The notes: generated from the letters alone by a model not told the origin. 64,000 bases of DNA from a virus (IMGVR_UViG_3300034019_000950:1-64000), one strand, 5' to 3'. Numbered from the stretch's first letter, positions 27,022-31,999 are shown. A program made the numbers and translations.

Positions 27022-27762
27022 ATGCCGACCACTGAGCTGAACCTGACGACCGTGGCGCTTTCTGAACTGCGCCCCGACCCTGCCAATCCGCGCACGCACG
27101 ATGCGCGAAACATCGCGGCCATCGCAGCCAGCCTGCGAGAGCACGGTCAGGTAGAGCCGCTGCTGGTTCAGCGTTCCACGATGATGGTGATCGGCGGCAA
27201 CGGACGTGCAGAGGCCATGCGCTCCCTTGGCTGGAAGCAGGCCCGCGTGGCGTTGCTTGATGTCAGCGACACGGAGGCTCGCAAGCTTTCCATTGCACTG
27301 AACCGCACGGGCGAACTGGCCGGATGGGATGAAGCTGTGCTGGCGCGGCACCTTGCCGACCTGTCGGCGTTGGATGGTTTCGTTGTCGAGGACCTGGGCT
27401 TCAACACGGCTGAGCTGGACGCCTTGGTGGCCGCCTATGTTGGTGAAGTCGATCAGATGCACTTGGAAGAGCCGCCGCCGCGCGACACCAGCAAACTTCC
27501 AATCAACCAGCTGACTGCCGCACAGACCGATCAGCCTGCTTCCCCTGTCACGTCGTCCGTCATGCCCGCTACGCCCGAGCACACCGTTCCTGCGCCGATG
27601 CCGACCAGCAGCGTTCGCCTTGTCCAGCTGTTCTTGGATGATGAAACCATCGACGGCTTTCAGATGGCCGTGCGCAAGCTTGCCGACCAGTACGTGACCG
27701 ACAACATCACCGACACCGTGCGTCGTGCTGTGCTGACGGCAGCCGGCGATTGGAAGGACTGA
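27022..27762 (+). CDS. ParB/Srx N-terminal domain protein
   Basis: LRPDPANPR.H, SL..HGQVEPLLV, GNGR..A, ALNR..E...WD. Confidence 0.85.
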   Translation: MPTTELNLTTVALSELRPDPANPRTHDARNIAAIAASLREHGQVEPLLVQRSTMMVIGGNGRAEAMRSLGWKQARVALLDVSDTEARKLSIALNRTGELAGWDEAVLARHLADLSALDGFVVEDLGFNTAELDALVAAYVGEVDQMHLEEPPPRDTSKLPINQLTAAQTDQPASPVTSSVMPATPEHTVPAPMPTSSVRLVQLFLDDETIDGFQMAVRKLADQYVTDNITDTVRRAVLTAAGDWKD

Positions 27763-28655
27763 TGCGGGCGGTCCTACGGACCAAGGTGCCTGAGCATGAA
27801 GTGGCTGCATGGAAGGGCAGGCACCCGCAGGCAAGCCAGTTCGACATGCTGGTTACTGGTGAGTGCGACCTGTATGGGCCGGATGGATCACCTTTGCTGT
27901 TTGTCCGACGCGGCAAGCTGAACAGCGAGGCAATAGAACAAGCAAGGCCGACACTGCACTGGATGCGTCGCTTCACAAGCGACAACCGCGCTGACTACGC
28001 TGGCGGCATTGCAGCCAAGGCCGTCAACGCAGATGGCACAGTGGCGAAGCAGAGCCGGACATACGATGAGCAAGGCAACGTGATGAGTGTGCCGAGCTGC
28101 ATTGCCGGCTTCTTTGAGCCGCAAGGCGGCCGGCATCCGTTCTGCAGGGCCACAGCATTCCTGCGCTCCTTCCCTGATCAATGGGCCAGTCTGCAGCCGA
28201 TGCTTAGGGACGTCGGCGCACTCTATCGACGCACTGTTCCGCTGCGATGGAAGCAGCAGATGGAAGTGGTGGACAAGTCAGACCCAGCGTGGGTCATTCC
28301 TGGCACACCCTTCACTACGATTACCGTCAACAACACAGTGCCGGCTGCCTACCACCGAGATGGTGGCGACCTCAAAGAAGGCTTTGGTGTCCTTGTCGTC
28401 TTGTCAAAGGGTCAGTTCGACGGATTCGATCTCGTCGTTCCAGAGTACCGTGTGGCTACCCACCTGCGCGACGGCGACGTTCTGTTCTTTGACCCGACTG
28501 TGTGGCATGGCAACACCCTGCCGACCAACATGGTTGGAGAGAAAGACGAGGACTGGTATCGCATCAGCCTTGTGGCTTACTACCGAGAGGGCATCGTCGG
28601 CTGCGGCAGCCCGCAGGCAGAGCTGCAAAAAGCAAAGGCCAGGGGTGCGCTGTGA
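27762..28655 (+). CDS. TET/JBP-family 2OG-Fe(II) dioxygenase
   Basis: TPFTTITVN, HRD (HxD), PEYRVA, WHGN, RISLVAYYRE. Confidence 0.85.
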   Translation: MRAVLRTKVPEHEVAAWKGRHPQASQFDMLVTGECDLYGPDGSPLLFVRRGKLNSEAIEQARPTLHWMRRFTSDNRADYAGGIAAKAVNADGTVAKQSRTYDEQGNVMSVPSCIAGFFEPQGGRHPFCRATAFLRSFPDQWASLQPMLRDVGALYRRTVPLRWKQQMEVVDKSDPAWVIPGTPFTTITVNNTVPAAYHRDGGDLKEGFGVLVVLSKGQFDGFDLVVPEYRVATHLRDGDVLFFDPTVWHGNTLPTNMVGEKDEDWYRISLVAYYREGIVGCGSPQAELQKAKARGAL

Positions 28656-29179
28656 AGACCGTGCTTTACGTCGTCGGAGCGCCCGGTGTAGGTAAAAGCA
28701 CTGCGCTCACCGGACTACTCGACAAGTGGGCCACCGCGCTTGTTCAGTCCCCAAAGTGGACATTGAGTGCGCCGATTGCTCTCGTTGGTCACTACGTAAA
28801 GGGCGGCCATGATGGCGGCGACACCGTTCCCTACGACGGTGCGGCAGAGTGCTTGACGTACATGCGCGATGTTCTGTTGCAAGATCACCGCCTGCATGGC
28901 TTTGTGCTGGATGGTGACCGCTTTACAACCTCTACCTGCCGTCAGTTCACTGACGGCCTACCTGGCATCCGTGTTGTGTGTGTTCATCTACAAGCCAGTG
29001 ACGCAACACTCACAGCCAGACGGACAGCCAGGGGCAGCACGCAGAACCCAACATGGATGCTCGGCCGCAACACGAAGGCGGCACGGTTTGCTGACAGCTT
29101 CCCCGACGCGGTACGGCTGCAGACTGATGAAATGAGGCCGGATGAAGTCACCCAGGCAATACGGGAACTGTTGCGGTGA
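28652..29179 (+). CDS. P-loop nucleotide/DNA kinase of base-modification loci
   Basis: GAPGVGKST, GGD, DGDRF, RGSTQNPTWMLGRNTK. Confidence 0.75.
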   Translation: MKTVLYVVGAPGVGKSTALTGLLDKWATALVQSPKWTLSAPIALVGHYVKGGHDGGDTVPYDGAAECLTYMRDVLLQDHRLHGFVLDGDRFTTSTCRQFTDGLPGIRVVCVHLQASDATLTARRTARGSTQNPTWMLGRNTKAARFADSFPDAVRLQTDEMRPDEVTQAIRELLR

Positions 29180-30219: not shown

Positions 30220-31046
30220 GGTTACAGGTCGTCAACCCGGATGGTCGGCTACGTTCAGTGCTGGTATCCAGTGCTGACAAGCTTGCGGCATCCTTGCCGG
30301 CCGCTGTTCCCGCAAGCTGGCTCGCCATGCCAGACGCAAAGGGTCTGATGGCAGAAGTGGAAGCATTCCACGACTTCTTGCGATCGCGCTTGCAGCTTGT
30401 TGTTGTCGACGTGGCCGACGCAACGCTGTTTGATGGCCTGTATGCGCGCGATTACGGCGCCGTCGTCAATCAGACGCTGTATCTGATGCGCAGTCCAGTG
30501 CCGCATCGTGCGCCAGAACGAGACAGGGTGGCTGACGAGCTGCAAAGGCTTGGAATCAAGGCAGTGTGCGCGCCAGATGATGTCTATGGTGAGGGAGCAG
30601 ACCTGCTTCCGCTTTCGCAGGGCCGATGGGCAATCGCAACCGGACGGCGCACAACACAAGGCATGGCCTTATGGATGCGCTCGCAGCTTCCATCAGATCA
30701 AGTCCTCTATCGAACCAAAAAGCGTGGACCTGATGTGCCTCAGCACCTGCTGGGTGGCAACCGCATCCTCAACGGGGTGCTTTACCACCGCGCAGATGTC
30801 GAGCCACTGCCAGGATGGACGGGCGAGTGCGTCAGTCTGAATGTCAATGATGAGGTTGGCAGCAAGCTCGGCATGAACTGGCTCGTGCTGGACAGGGCGG
30901 AAGTCGTGATGGCAGAGGACTGCCCAGGAGTGCGAGCCATGCTGGAGAAAAAAGGCATCAAAGTTCATGTTCTGCCGATGGCTAACATCAGGGCAATGGG
31001 GGGCGGCTTTGCCTGCGCCACGTTGCCGCTGTGGAGAGATCTATGA
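30213..31046 (+). CDS. amidinotransferase/arginine deiminase (pentein) family protein
   Basis: YARD, EGAD, QH and C-terminal GGGFACATLPL with catalytic Cys. Confidence 0.8.
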   Translation: MVGLQVVNPDGRLRSVLVSSADKLAASLPAAVPASWLAMPDAKGLMAEVEAFHDFLRSRLQLVVVDVADATLFDGLYARDYGAVVNQTLYLMRSPVPHRAPERDRVADELQRLGIKAVCAPDDVYGEGADLLPLSQGRWAIATGRRTTQGMALWMRSQLPSDQVLYRTKKRGPDVPQHLLGGNRILNGVLYHRADVEPLPGWTGECVSLNVNDEVGSKLGMNWLVLDRAEVVMAEDCPGVRAMLEKKGIKVHVLPMANIRAMGGGFACATLPLWRDL

Positions 31047-31999
31047 CAGATGCGCTTGATCCAACGTCATGGCCCTTGTGGTCTGTGTTCATTCGCTTTG
31101 CACGTCGTCAGCTGGAAACGCTCGACTACGACCCGTTCCATCCGATGCTGGTGCACCTACAGCGCGGCACGAGTGTTGATGAAGGCTTGTGGTCCAGCTT
31201 CCTTTACATGGCCTTCTACAACCTGGGATCAGCCTACTGTGCGTGGACAACAACACGTCCGATGCAGGCACTTCCAGCAATAGCGGACCGATGGTCTATC
31301 GGAACGCAAAGACGCAACCTGCGAGCAAGCAGTGTTTGCAAGCATGTTGAGTCATTGGCATCGCAAGCCAGACCGCACGGGAGCCTCTACAGCTTCTTCA
31401 CACATGACTTCACTGGTAACGAAAAGGCAGATTGGCTAAGCCTTCTGAACAGGCTGGAAGGCGTGTGGGGTAACGGAAGGTGGGGCGCTTACACGACAGC
31501 TGAGCTGCTACAGAAAGTGAACCAGCTACCAGTGCAGCCAGCAACCCTTGGATTGGAAGGAGCCACAGGCCCACGAAAGGGACTGGTGGTGCTGACGGGC
31601 CTATCAGCGGAAACCAGCACGGAGGTCATGCAGGTGTATGGTGACGCGCTACTGGCCAAGCTACGCAGCCTGTTTCCAAACCCCCGCATCCCCTGGGCAA
31701 GACACGGCATTGACTTCGCAATGACCGAAAGCATCCTCTGCGACTTCTACGGCTTGACCAAGGGTCGCTACTACATCGGGCGGGACATAGACCGTGAGGC
31801 AGGACGGATACTGTCTCAAAGTGGTCGAACTGACGTGGATATGGGTCCCTTGTGGGCCGCACGCGCCACAGTGTTCCCACCTCACCTGCTTGCTGAGCGA
31901 CGGAGGACCGTGCTGGACATTGATTATGAAAGAGCGCGGGTCTACAAAGAGACTGGCCTGCTGGCAGACTACCGTGACGACTTCCCTTTGCTGCCATGA
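31043..31999 (+). CDS. amino acid:DNA transferase (aGPT-Pplase2/ADDT family)
   Basis: DYDP, GNGRWGAY, GPRKGL, ESILCDF....GRYYIGRDID. Confidence 0.75.
   Translation: MTDALDPTSWPLWSVFIRFARRQLETLDYDPFHPMLVHLQRGTSVDEGLWSSFLYMAFYNLGSAYCAWTTTRPMQALPAIADRWSIGTQRRNLRASSVCKHVESLASQARPHGSLYSFFTHDFTGNEKADWLSLLNRLEGVWGNGRWGAYTTAELLQKVNQLPVQPATLGLEGATGPRKGLVVLTGLSAETSTEVMQVYGDALLAKLRSLFPNPRIPWARHGIDFAMTESILCDFYGLTKGRYYIGRDIDREAGRILSQSGRTDVDMGPLWAARATVFPPHLLAERRRTVLDIDYERARVYKETGLLADYRDDFPLLP

What the first reader, a model, noticed from the sequence alone, without database searches (positions are those of the whole stretch)
27022..31999. Six-gene DNA hypermodification operon combining TET/JBP, kinase and ADDT with a sulfotransferase and an amidinotransferase
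Seen: six overlapping, translationally coupled genes (ParB-N, TET/JBP, P-loop kinase, sulfotransferase, pentein, ADDT). Established: TET/JBP enzymes oxidise 5-methylpyrimidines in DNA; in 5hmdU phages a DNA kinase phosphorylates 5hmU and an amino acid:DNA transferase displaces the phosphate with an amino acid or amine. Inference: a wholly post-replicative route T to 5hmU to activated 5hmU to amine adduct, further given an amidino and/or sulfate group. I know of no characterised guanidino- or sulfo-thymidine pathway. No dUMP hydroxymethylase, C5-methyltransferase or DNA polymerase is visible in the window.
Basis: partly seen in the sequence, partly recalled or inferred. Interest (0 to 1): 0.92.

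Follow-up and report, generated by a model that had tools for sequence, protein, structure and literature searches.

The report
Phage thymine-hypermodification operon with sulfotransferase
An uncultured 79-kb lake-water phage carries the published gene set that oxidises thymine in finished DNA and attaches an amino acid to it, joined to a sulfate-adding enzyme and an arginine-type guanidino hydrolase that no studied phage has, so its DNA probably carries an undescribed, possibly sulfated, base.

Summary
Six same-strand genes overlap by 1-7 nt: a ParB-like protein, a TET/JBP dioxygenase, a P-loop kinase, a sulfotransferase-fold protein, a pentein and an amino acid:DNA transferase (AADT).

The core (ParB + T-dioxygenase + kinase + AADT) is already published (Lee 2021; O'Toole 2026). 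It also occurs in cultured actinophages such as Gordonia phage CaiB. The complete 79-kb record has no C5-methyltransferase and no ThyA-like hydroxymethylase, so thymine is the likely substrate.

The new part is the sulfotransferase (ST) plus pentein pair.
- ST: structural Z is 12-14 to solved sulfotransferases. The PAPS-binding loop is kept. Cellular homologues sit beside CysDNC or APS kinase genes.
- Pentein: it lies on the DDAH/arginine-deiminase hydrolase branch (profile E 5e-27 to P. aeruginosa DDAH). It is not on the amidinotransferase branch.
- Across about 90 phage, genome and metagenome loci, this ST nearly always sits beside a guanidino hydrolase. That partner is either a pentein or, after at least three swaps on the ST tree, an arginase-fold enzyme.

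This argues for removal or conversion of an arginine-type guanidino group, not addition of one.

The pair plugs into both TET-type and ThyA/HMUDK-type 5hmU pathways. It is absent from 50,697 cultured phage records. The product is unknown. Two earlier notes of this scan, on other DNA, reached a similar reading.

The parts
27022..27762 (+). g1: ParB-like protein (N-terminal ParB/Srx nucleotide-binding domain, Pro-rich linker, short C-terminal domain, no HTH detected). Predicted activator of the adjacent dioxygenase.
   Evidence: Pfam ParB_N 30.4 bits at residues 8-92; phrog_620 at 8e-38. Translation. The activator role is taken from PMC13229309, not tested here.
27762..28655 (+). g2: TET/JBP-family Fe(II)/2OG 5-methylpyrimidine dioxygenase, predicted thymine -> 5hmU in DNA (alternative TTG start at 27750).
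   Evidence: Pfam Tet_JBP 87.4 bits. HRD, distal H and R motifs are present. A 78%-identical copy with ParB is in L036. No C5-MTase in the record.
28652..29179 (+). g3: small P-loop kinase, predicted 5hmU-DNA kinase.
   Evidence: AAA_33 30.6 bits and Ploopntkinase3 27.4 bits against a cut-off of 27. Walker A GAPGVGKS. No HMUDK_HMUD1 hit. No APS_kinase in the record.
29176..30219 (+). g4: PAPS-type sulfotransferase-fold enzyme (347 aa; the 300-aa database call would remove the PAPS-binding loop).
   Evidence: AF2 pLDDT 87.4. VIA Z 13.8-12 to STF9, CurM ST, TPST1/2 and OLS ST, and all top 50 chains are sulfotransferases. Profile hits OLS ST at 3e-5 and CurM ST at 1.5e-4 through SASRSGSS against SSPRSGST. 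Homologues carry Sulfotransfer_3. Cellular homologues sit next to CysN/C, CysD or APS kinase.
30213..31046 (+). g5: pentein-fold guanidino-group-modifying enzyme of the DDAH/arginine-deiminase (hydrolase) branch, with its catalytic and arginine-binding residues intact.
   Evidence: AF2 pLDDT 97.3. Foldseek shows the pentein fold. Profile A3 against PDB: P. aeruginosa DDAH 4.6e-27 full length, human DDAH1 1.5e-17, ADI 2e-17, AGAT 1.9e-11 over the C-terminus only. Invariant D80 R99 E127 D130 R146 H178 C268. NCBIfam best hits are dimethylargininases, far below their cut-offs.
31043..31999 (+). g6: amino acid:DNA transferase (ADDT / aGPT-Pplase superfamily), donor unknown (alternative GTG start at 31031).
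   Evidence: Pfam ADDT 64.4 bits and aGPT-Pplase3 28.5 bits. 31-34% identity to genes annotated 'aGPT-Pplase2 domain protein' in Gordonia and Rhodococcus phages.

Best explanation
The operon is a post-replicative thymidine-hypermodification pathway of a freshwater phage.

Steps inferred from published homologous systems:
- The ParB-like protein activates the TET/JBP dioxygenase, which hydroxylates thymine in phage DNA to 5hmU.
- The P-loop kinase phosphorylates the 5-hydroxymethyl group.
- The AADT displaces the phosphate with the amine of an amino acid.

Steps inferred here from comparative genomics and structure:
- The donor is most likely L-arginine or a close guanidino amino acid.
- The DDAH-like pentein then hydrolyses the side-chain guanidino group, to a ureido (citrulline-type) or amino (ornithine-type) group.
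- The PAPS-dependent sulfotransferase sulfonates the adduct.
- The product would be an anionic, sulfated amino-acid-thymidine not yet described.

The order of the last two steps and the atom that receives sulfate are not determined.

The ST plus guanidino-hydrolase pair is a portable module. It is borrowed from cellular PAPS-linked arginine-derivative pathways and plugs into either a TET-made or a ThyA-made 5hmU source.
For: Core pathway:
- All family assignments are above curated cut-offs. Catalytic motifs are present.
- The complete record has no C5-MTase, ThyA-like enzyme or family-A DNA polymerase.
- The ParB-dependent T-dioxygenase subclass and its linkage to P-loop kinases and AADTs are experimentally established (PMC13229309). 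TET replacing the dUMP hydroxymethylase was described in PMC8989533.
- The cultured Gordonia phage CaiB has ParB-TET-AADT-kinase.

Sulfotransferase: fold Z 12-14, the PSB loop, and neighbouring CysN/C, CysD or APS kinase genes in cellular homologues.

Guanidino hydrolysis:
- The pentein profile is closest to DDAH and ADI, and the residues aligned with the DDAH catalytic and substrate-binding set are invariant, including the two arginines (R99, R146).
- 15 of 17 viral ST loci have a pentein within 2.5 kb. Two of the others (L004, L014) have an arginase-family gene instead.
- About 26 Oxalobacteraceae-type genome loci have ST followed by an arginase-family gene whose best NCBIfam hit is arginase, not agmatinase.
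- The pentein/arginase label changes at least 3 times on the ST tree.

Link to 5hmU chemistry: the ST is embedded with HMUDK_hel, HMUDK_HMUD1, ADDT and ThyA-like genes in L004, L011, L088 and L120. The same six genes occur in the same order in L002/L073 at 36% ST identity and 41% GC.
Against: - No chemistry was measured, and the AADT donor is unknown.
- g6 belongs to the ADDT/aGPT-Pplase3 clades. All characterised AADTs are clade 2.
- g3 does not hit the HMUDK_HMUD1 model.
- Cellular homologues of the ST-hydrolase pair lack any DNA-modification gene. There the pair acts on a small molecule, and it could do so in the phage as well.
- AT-rich phage loci (L003-type) carry kinase-ST-pentein with ThyA-like genes, but no ADDT was detected in the (incomplete) records.
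- The nearest solved relatives of the ST (CurM and OLS ST) use sulfate as a leaving group, not as a final decoration.
Confidence: 0.6

Rival explanations
1. The ST and pentein act before transfer, on a free arginine-derived metabolite. They make an unusual (for example sulfated or de-amidinated) amine or amino acid, which the AADT then attaches to activated 5hmU.
For: Cellular homologues of the pair lie in clusters with CysDNC or APS kinase, oxygenases and methyltransferases, without DNA-modification genes. They therefore act on small molecules or peptides. The pentein keeps the two invariant arginines that align with conserved arginines of DDAH; that these bind the substrate carboxylate is recalled from DDAH structures.
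Against: In every reconstituted pathway the AADT donor is a common metabolite and the tailoring happens on DNA (PMC8989533). An N-alpha-linked amino acid would also keep a free carboxylate, so those residues do not discriminate.
Confidence: 0.2
2. The ST is an activating sulfotransferase, like CurM and OLS ST. It sulfonates the 5hmU hydroxyl (or a hydroxyl of the adduct) to create a leaving group. Sulfate is then absent from the final base, and the guanidino hydrolase processes an arginine adduct formed by substitution.
For: The only PDB sequences matched by the ST profile are the two activating STs. L003-type phages carry ST-pentein with ThyA-like genes and no ADDT was found.
Against: A kinase and an AADT are present in the same operon, and HMUDK is adjacent in L004, L088 and L120. 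A second activation of 5hmU would be redundant. Structural Z scores are equally high for non-activating STs such as TPST and STF9.
Confidence: 0.08
3. One reading: the pentein is an amidinotransferase that adds an amidino group to an amine adduct, giving a guanidino-thymidine which may also be sulfated.
For: Foldseek ranks AGAT, SxtG, HsvA and StrB1 among the top structural matches. The Cys-His-Asp catalytic set is shared by all penteins.
Against: The profile search puts DDAH and ADI far ahead of AGAT and StrB1, which match over the C-terminus only. At 277 aa the protein has DDAH size. Arginase-fold hydrolases replace the pentein at the same position at least three times, and these cannot transfer amidino groups.
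Confidence: 0.07
4. The dioxygenase acts on 5-methylcytosine (host-methylated or otherwise), so the pathway modifies cytosine.
For: Some phage TETs are 5mC dioxygenases (PMC8256090, listed). T-dioxygenases also oxidise 5mC in vitro.
Against: There is no C5-MTase in a record rated 100% complete. ParB-associated enzymes were shown to be T-dioxygenases. Kinase and AADT are T-hypermodification machinery.
Confidence: 0.03

Closest known systems
ParB-dependent phage T-dioxygenase pathways (5mYOX clade C1; O'Toole et al., PNAS 2026, PMC13229309)
   Same: A ParB-like gene sits immediately upstream of a TET/JBP gene, with a P-loop kinase and an AADT in the same cluster and no C5-MTase. Modification is post-replicative.
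   Different: That paper lists GATases, kinases, AADTs, glycosyltransferases and others as partners. It does not mention a sulfotransferase or a pentein/amidino enzyme (0 occurrences). Clade membership of g2 was not tested by phylogeny here.
Thymidine hypermodification pathways of phages M6, ViI, PaMx11, PhiW-14 and SP10 (Lee et al. 2018; 2021, PMC8989533)
   Same: The logic is 5hmU -> 5-HMUDK phosphorylation -> AADT substitution by an amine -> on-DNA tailoring. PaMx11 trims the adduct with a lyase and then N-acylates it. This is a close analogy to 'hydrolase trims, ST sulfonates'.
   Different: The 5hmU source here is a TET, not a dUMP hydroxymethylase. The AADT is of the ADDT/aGPT-Pplase3 clades, not clade 2. 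The tailoring enzymes (PAPS sulfotransferase, DDAH-like pentein) are of families not reported for DNA.
Cultured actinophage cassettes, e.g. Gordonia phage CaiB genes 1-5 (ParB-like, oxidoreductase, AADT-like, adenylate kinase, oxidoreductase)
   Same: The ParB-TET-AADT-kinase core is the same. g6 is 32% identical to CaiB gene 3.
   Different: There is no ST and no pentein. tblastn of the ST finds nothing in 50,697 phage records.
Bacterial dimethylarginine dimethylaminohydrolase (P. aeruginosa DDAH, PDB 1h70/3rhy)
   Same: Full-length profile match (E 5e-27). D80/R99/E127/R146/H178/C268 align with conserved DDAH positions. The sizes are similar.
   Different: NCBIfam DDAH equivalogs score 28-30 bits against cut-offs of 300-340. 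It is therefore a separate subfamily with an unknown guanidino substrate.
CurM / OLS activating sulfotransferase domains and TPST / Stf-type PAPS sulfotransferases
   Same: The fold matches (Z 12-14), as does the PSB loop xSxRSGS[ST].
   Different: Identity is 12-20%. g4 itself is below all Pfam sulfotransferase thresholds, and the acceptor is unknown.

Membership tests
ParB-dependent phage T-dioxygenase system (5mYOX clade C1) | TET/JBP oxygenase domain with the Fe(II)/2OG ligands | tested here: met
   Tet_JBP 87.4 bits. HRD, distal H (WHGN) and R (RISL) are seen in the translation.
ParB-dependent phage T-dioxygenase system (5mYOX clade C1) | Adjacent ParB homologue with an N-terminal nucleotide-binding domain and a C-terminal domain but no DNA-binding HTH | tested here: inconclusive
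   Only ParB_N (residues 8-92) is detected in a 246-aa protein. A Pro-rich linker and a short C-terminal segment are visible. The C-terminal dimerisation domain was not modelled.
ParB-dependent phage T-dioxygenase system (5mYOX clade C1) | No co-encoded C5-cytosine methyltransferase; linkage to a kinase and an AADT | tested here: met
   PF00145 is absent from the 79-kb record while the controls ring. Kinase and ADDT lie in the same operon.
ParB-dependent phage T-dioxygenase system (5mYOX clade C1) | Phylogenetic placement in clade C1; ParB-dependent T oxidation | not testable with these tools
   The reference 5mYOX sequences are not held (no supplements). Activity needs an assay.
5-hmdU DNA kinase (5-HMUDK) | Match to HMUDK_HMUD1 (PF18748), usually with an HMUDK_hel partner | tested here: not met
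   g3 hits AAA_33 and Ploopntkinase3 (27.4 bits against 27) but not HMUDK_HMUD1. The L004 kinase next to its ST does hit it (49.7 bits). The function of g3 is inferred from context.
Amino acid:DNA transferase (AADT / aGPT-Pplase superfamily) | Match to ADDT or aGPT-Pplase models above the cut-off | tested here: met
   ADDT 64.4 bits against 26.2; aGPT-Pplase3 28.5 bits against 25.
Amino acid:DNA transferase (AADT / aGPT-Pplase superfamily) | Membership of clade 2, the only clade with reconstituted members | tested here: not met
   No aGPT-Pplase2 hit is listed for g6. The characterised enzymes are all clade 2.
PAPS-dependent sulfotransferase | Sulfotransferase fold | tested here: met
   VIA Z 13.8 (STF9), 13.1 (CurM ST) and 12.7 (TPST1); the top 50 chains are all sulfotransferases. 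Atlas structural neighbours are 89-100% Sulfotransfer_3.
PAPS-dependent sulfotransferase | 5'-phosphosulfate-binding loop and a 3'-phosphate-binding Arg | tested here: met
   S41-R42-S43-G44-S45 is nearly invariant and aligns to PRSGST of OLS and CurM ST. R202 is invariant. The role of each residue is inferred from the solved homologues.
PAPS-dependent sulfotransferase | Pfam Sulfotransfer_1/3 match above the cut-off | tested here: not met
   g4 has no Pfam hit at E<0.01. Relatives P0007, P0010, P0011 and the L003 ST (37.8 bits) do have one.
Amidinotransferase (AGAT/StrB1/SxtG type) | Closest sequence kinship to amidinotransferases over the full length | tested here: not met
   The profile matches AGAT only at positions 223-279 (E 1.9e-11) and StrB1 at 2.6e-5, against DDAH full-length at 4.6e-27.
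DDAH / arginine deiminase (guanidino hydrolase branch of the penteins) | Cys-His-acid catalytic set plus two guanidino-binding acids and two carboxylate-binding arginines | tested here: met
   Invariant D80, R99, E127, D130, R146, H178 and C268 align with the corresponding conserved positions of P. aeruginosa DDAH. DDAH residue numbers and residue roles are recalled from the literature, not printed by a tool.
DDAH / arginine deiminase (guanidino hydrolase branch of the penteins) | Equivalog-level match (same substrate) | tested here: not met
   NCBIfam dimethylargininase models score 27.7-29.6 bits against cut-offs of 300-340.

The most novel reading that the evidence does not exclude
The phage makes the first sulfated DNA base. 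Arginine is grafted onto TET-generated 5hmU. Its guanidino group is hydrolysed by the DDAH-like pentein (or, in other phages, by an arginase-fold enzyme). The product is sulfonated by a PAPS sulfotransferase, giving an anionic sulfo-amino-acid thymidine. The ST plus guanidino-hydrolase pair would then be a portable tailoring module shared between cellular secondary metabolism and at least three architectures of phage 5hmU pathways.
Probability: 0.35. Interest if true: 0.85.

Novelty: new variant of a known kind. Interest (0 to 1): 0.68.

Why it matters
Every known thymidine hypermodification adds cationic or neutral groups such as amines, amino acids, sugars or acetyl. A sulfate ester or sulfamate on DNA would be a new chemical class, with different consequences for restriction evasion, packaging charge and sequencing chemistry.

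The pair also supplies two enzyme types not yet seen acting in DNA modification: a PAPS sulfotransferase and a guanidino hydrolase. The repeated pentein/arginase swap gives an unusually clear comparative-genomic handle on the intermediate, which should be an arginine-type guanidine.

The same module in Oxalobacteraceae and Bdellovibrionota points to an uncharacterised cellular sulfated arginine-derivative pathway.

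Tried and rejected
- Complex prediction of ST with pentein returned 'no answer' (score 0.00). It is no evidence either way.
The contexts of the closest ST homologues (P0002-P0006, 51-66% identity) could not be read.
- The look-up of sequencing runs listed no RNA holder, so nothing can be said on expression.
- Literature searches for sulfotransferase or amidinotransferase together with aGPT-Pplase, 5-hydroxymethyluracil or thymidine hypermodification found nothing relevant. 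The two key papers do not contain the words.
- tblastn of the ST against cultured phages gave no match.
- ADDT was not found in five L003-type records. These are only 10-54% complete and the control genomes did not ring, so the result is inconclusive.
- I considered whether g3 is an APS kinase supplying PAPS. It has no APS_kinase hit, and the record has none. PAPS must come from the host.
- I considered an N-omega-linked arginine adduct cleaved by the pentein to leave 5-aminomethyl-dU. I judged this topologically unlikely, because in DDAH the N-omega substituents lie at the closed bottom of the pocket. This rests on recalled structural knowledge and was not tested.

Full report
**What is there**

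The window is the first 64 kb of a 79,355-bp IMG/VR virus record that CheckV rates 100% complete.

Between 27022 and 31999, six + strand ORFs follow each other. Their stop and start codons overlap by 1-7 nt: TGATG, GTGA, GTGA, GTGGTAG and ATGA. This is the usual signature of translational coupling.

The junctions move three starts. g2 begins at ATG 27762, g3 at GTG 28652 and g6 at ATG 31043.

The 347-aa reading of g4 is correct. The 300-aa database call (P0001) would remove the conserved PAPS loop at residues 41-45.

GC content is lowest in this block (0.58-0.61, against 0.64-0.68 on either side). This fits an acquired module.

**The known core**

- g1 is a ParB_N protein.
- g2 is a Tet_JBP dioxygenase with its HRD/H/R ligands.
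- g3 is a Walker-A P-loop kinase, with a borderline Ploopntkinase3 match.
- g6 is an ADDT-family amino acid:DNA transferase.

The whole record lacks a C5-cytosine methyltransferase, a ThyA-like hydroxymethylase and a family-A polymerase. Control genomes ring for each of these families.

Two papers already describe this logic.
- Lee et al. 2021 noted metavirome contigs in which a TET_JBP gene replaces the dUMP hydroxymethylase beside 5-HMUDK and AADT genes.
- O'Toole et al. 2026 showed that ParB-associated phage 5mYOX enzymes are thymine dioxygenases that need their ParB on dsDNA. They are 'consistently linked' with P-loop kinases and AADTs.

Cultured actinophages carry the same core. Gordonia phage CaiB genes 1-5 are ParB-like, oxidoreductase, AADT-like, adenylate kinase and oxidoreductase.

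**The sulfotransferase**

- g4 has no Pfam hit, but relatives at 30-36% identity carry Sulfotransfer_3.
- An AF2 model (pLDDT 87.4) matches only sulfotransferases: Foldseek probability 1.0 and VIA Z 13.8-12 over 200-250 residues.
- The family profile hits just two PDB sequences significantly, the activating sulfotransferase domains of OLS and CurM. The match runs through the loop SASRSGSS against SSPRSGST.
- In Bdellovibrionota-type genomes the homologous ST lies next to CysN-CysC and CysD. In Oxalobacteraceae it lies next to an APS-kinase-like gene.
- The phage encodes no APS kinase, so it would draw on host PAPS.

**The pentein is a hydrolase-branch enzyme**

- The AF2 model is excellent (pLDDT 97.3).
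- Foldseek cannot separate amidinotransferases, DDAH, ArgZ and ADI. The family profile can:
  - P. aeruginosa DDAH, 4.6e-27, full length.
  - Human DDAH1, 1.5e-17.
  - ADI, 2e-17.
  - AGAT, 1.9e-11, over the last 57 positions only.
  - StrB1, 2.6e-5.
- The invariant residues D80, R99, E127, D130, R146, H178 and C268 align with the conserved catalytic and substrate-binding positions of DDAH. From my recollection of DDAH structures, these include the two arginines that hold the substrate's alpha-carboxylate.
- It is not a DDAH equivalog.

**The decisive comparative result**

Scans with the ST alignment returned 17 viral, 35 genomic and 57 metagenomic loci.

- The viral scan shows 15 of 17 ST loci with a pentein within 2.5 kb, usually overlapping the ST stop.
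- L004 and L014, two viral loci without a pentein, carry an arginase-family gene just after ST-ADDT instead (Pfam Arginase 25.6 and 49.6 bits).
- About 26 Oxalobacteraceae-type genome loci have methyltransferase - ST - arginase-family - APS kinase - FAD monooxygenase.
- Nine other genomes have ST - pentein, often with a diiron protein, a second sulfotransferase and CysDNC. The metagenome loci repeat all of these types.
- On a maximum-likelihood ST tree the partner type changes at least three times.
- The arginase-fold partner scores best against arginase rather than agmatinase.

Two unrelated folds recur at the same position. What they share is hydrolysis of an arginine-type guanidino group. 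This argues that the pathway passes through such a guanidine and removes or converts it. It argues against an amidino-adding step.

**Modularity**

- The ST/pentein pair sits in TET-type cassettes in the window and in L002/L073. The latter has the same six genes in the same order, on a contig of about 79 kb with 41% GC and 36% ST identity.
- It sits in classic clusters with a ThyA-like gene, HMUDK_hel, HMUDK and ADDT in L004, L011, L088 and L120.
- It sits in AT-rich phages as kinase - ST - pentein - divergent ThyA-like - APH - ThyA-like.
- Conversely, L036 has a ParB-TET pair 78% identical to the window's, followed by a TAGT-like glycosyltransferase instead.

**Mechanism proposed**

The steps to the amino-acid adduct follow published biochemistry. 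The remaining steps are inference: an arginine-type donor, guanidino hydrolysis by g5 and sulfonation by g4. The order of the last two steps is open.

Rivals are listed with odds in their own section. The most serious is that g4 and g5 prepare the donor as a free metabolite.

**Occurrence and earlier notes**

The operon's k-mers are fully present in 20 lake-water metagenome runs released 2020-2024. These are possibly one campaign and include the likely source sample.

Two earlier notes of this scan on other DNA (e1-6066197, e1-6066205) reached a similar reading. I arrived at mine before seeing them and re-tested the claims here.

**Verdict**

This is a new variant of a known kind of system. 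Its tailoring chemistry is untested but clearly circumscribed, and it could yield a new class of DNA base.

Noticed in passing
window 24725-26441: A serine recombinase (Resolvase domain, 123 bits; phrog_95 integrase positions 77-311 of 651) ends at 25504. It overlaps a 399-aa ORF in another frame (25242-26441) that has no family hit. This may be a frameshifted large serine recombinase or two genes. It lies between the primase-helicase and the operon, where the syntenic L002 has nothing comparable.
   Followed up: partly
window 26626-27006 and L002:5474-5740: A small ORF with no family hit lies directly upstream of the ParB gene and is conserved between the window and L002 (BLAST cluster c22). 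The primase-helicase (22577-24658) is also syntenic in both. The two ~79-kb phages therefore look like one lineage at 60% and 41% GC.
   Followed up: partly
window 1-4000: GC is 0.68-0.76 with strong positive GC skew. This is far above the 0.58-0.65 of the rest of the record. It was not annotated.
   Followed up: no
L033:8927-10372: A phage contig encodes a CitMHS / Na-sulfate-symporter-like membrane transporter between an ADDT gene (45% identical to g6) and HMUDK genes. It may import a modification precursor.
   Followed up: no
L036:6784-9724: The closest TET relative (78% identity) sits with a longer ParB (409 aa) and is followed by a weak TET-associated-glycosyltransferase-like gene. Closely related dioxygenases therefore feed different tailoring modules.
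   Followed up: partly
L038-L062 (Massilia, Duganella, Pseudoduganella, Rugamonas and others): A conserved chromosomal cluster reads SAM methyltransferase - ST homologue - arginase-family - APS-kinase-like - FAD/NAD(P) monooxygenase. It is a cellular pathway with an unknown product, probably a sulfated arginine derivative.
   Followed up: partly
L064, L065, L068-L070 (Bdellovibrionota, Gammaproteobacteria): CysN-CysC, CysD, a diiron (MiaE/rubrerythrin-like) protein, the ST, a pentein and a second Sulfotransfer_3 enzyme are clustered. L064 adds a B12-radical-SAM methyltransferase fusion and a tyrosine-phosphatase-like gene.
   Followed up: partly
L003, L005-L010, L015, L019, L074-L080: AT-rich large phages carry guanylate-kinase-like, P-loop kinase, ST, pentein, a divergent ThyA-like protein, an APH-type kinase and a second ThyA-like protein. 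No ADDT was found in the available (incomplete) records. This may be a different way of using the same pair.
   Followed up: partly
L071 (Thermoplasmatales MAG contig): ST - pentein - P-loop protein - ADDT (45.5 bits) - helicase on an archaeal-binned contig. The module may reach archaeal viruses.
   Followed up: no
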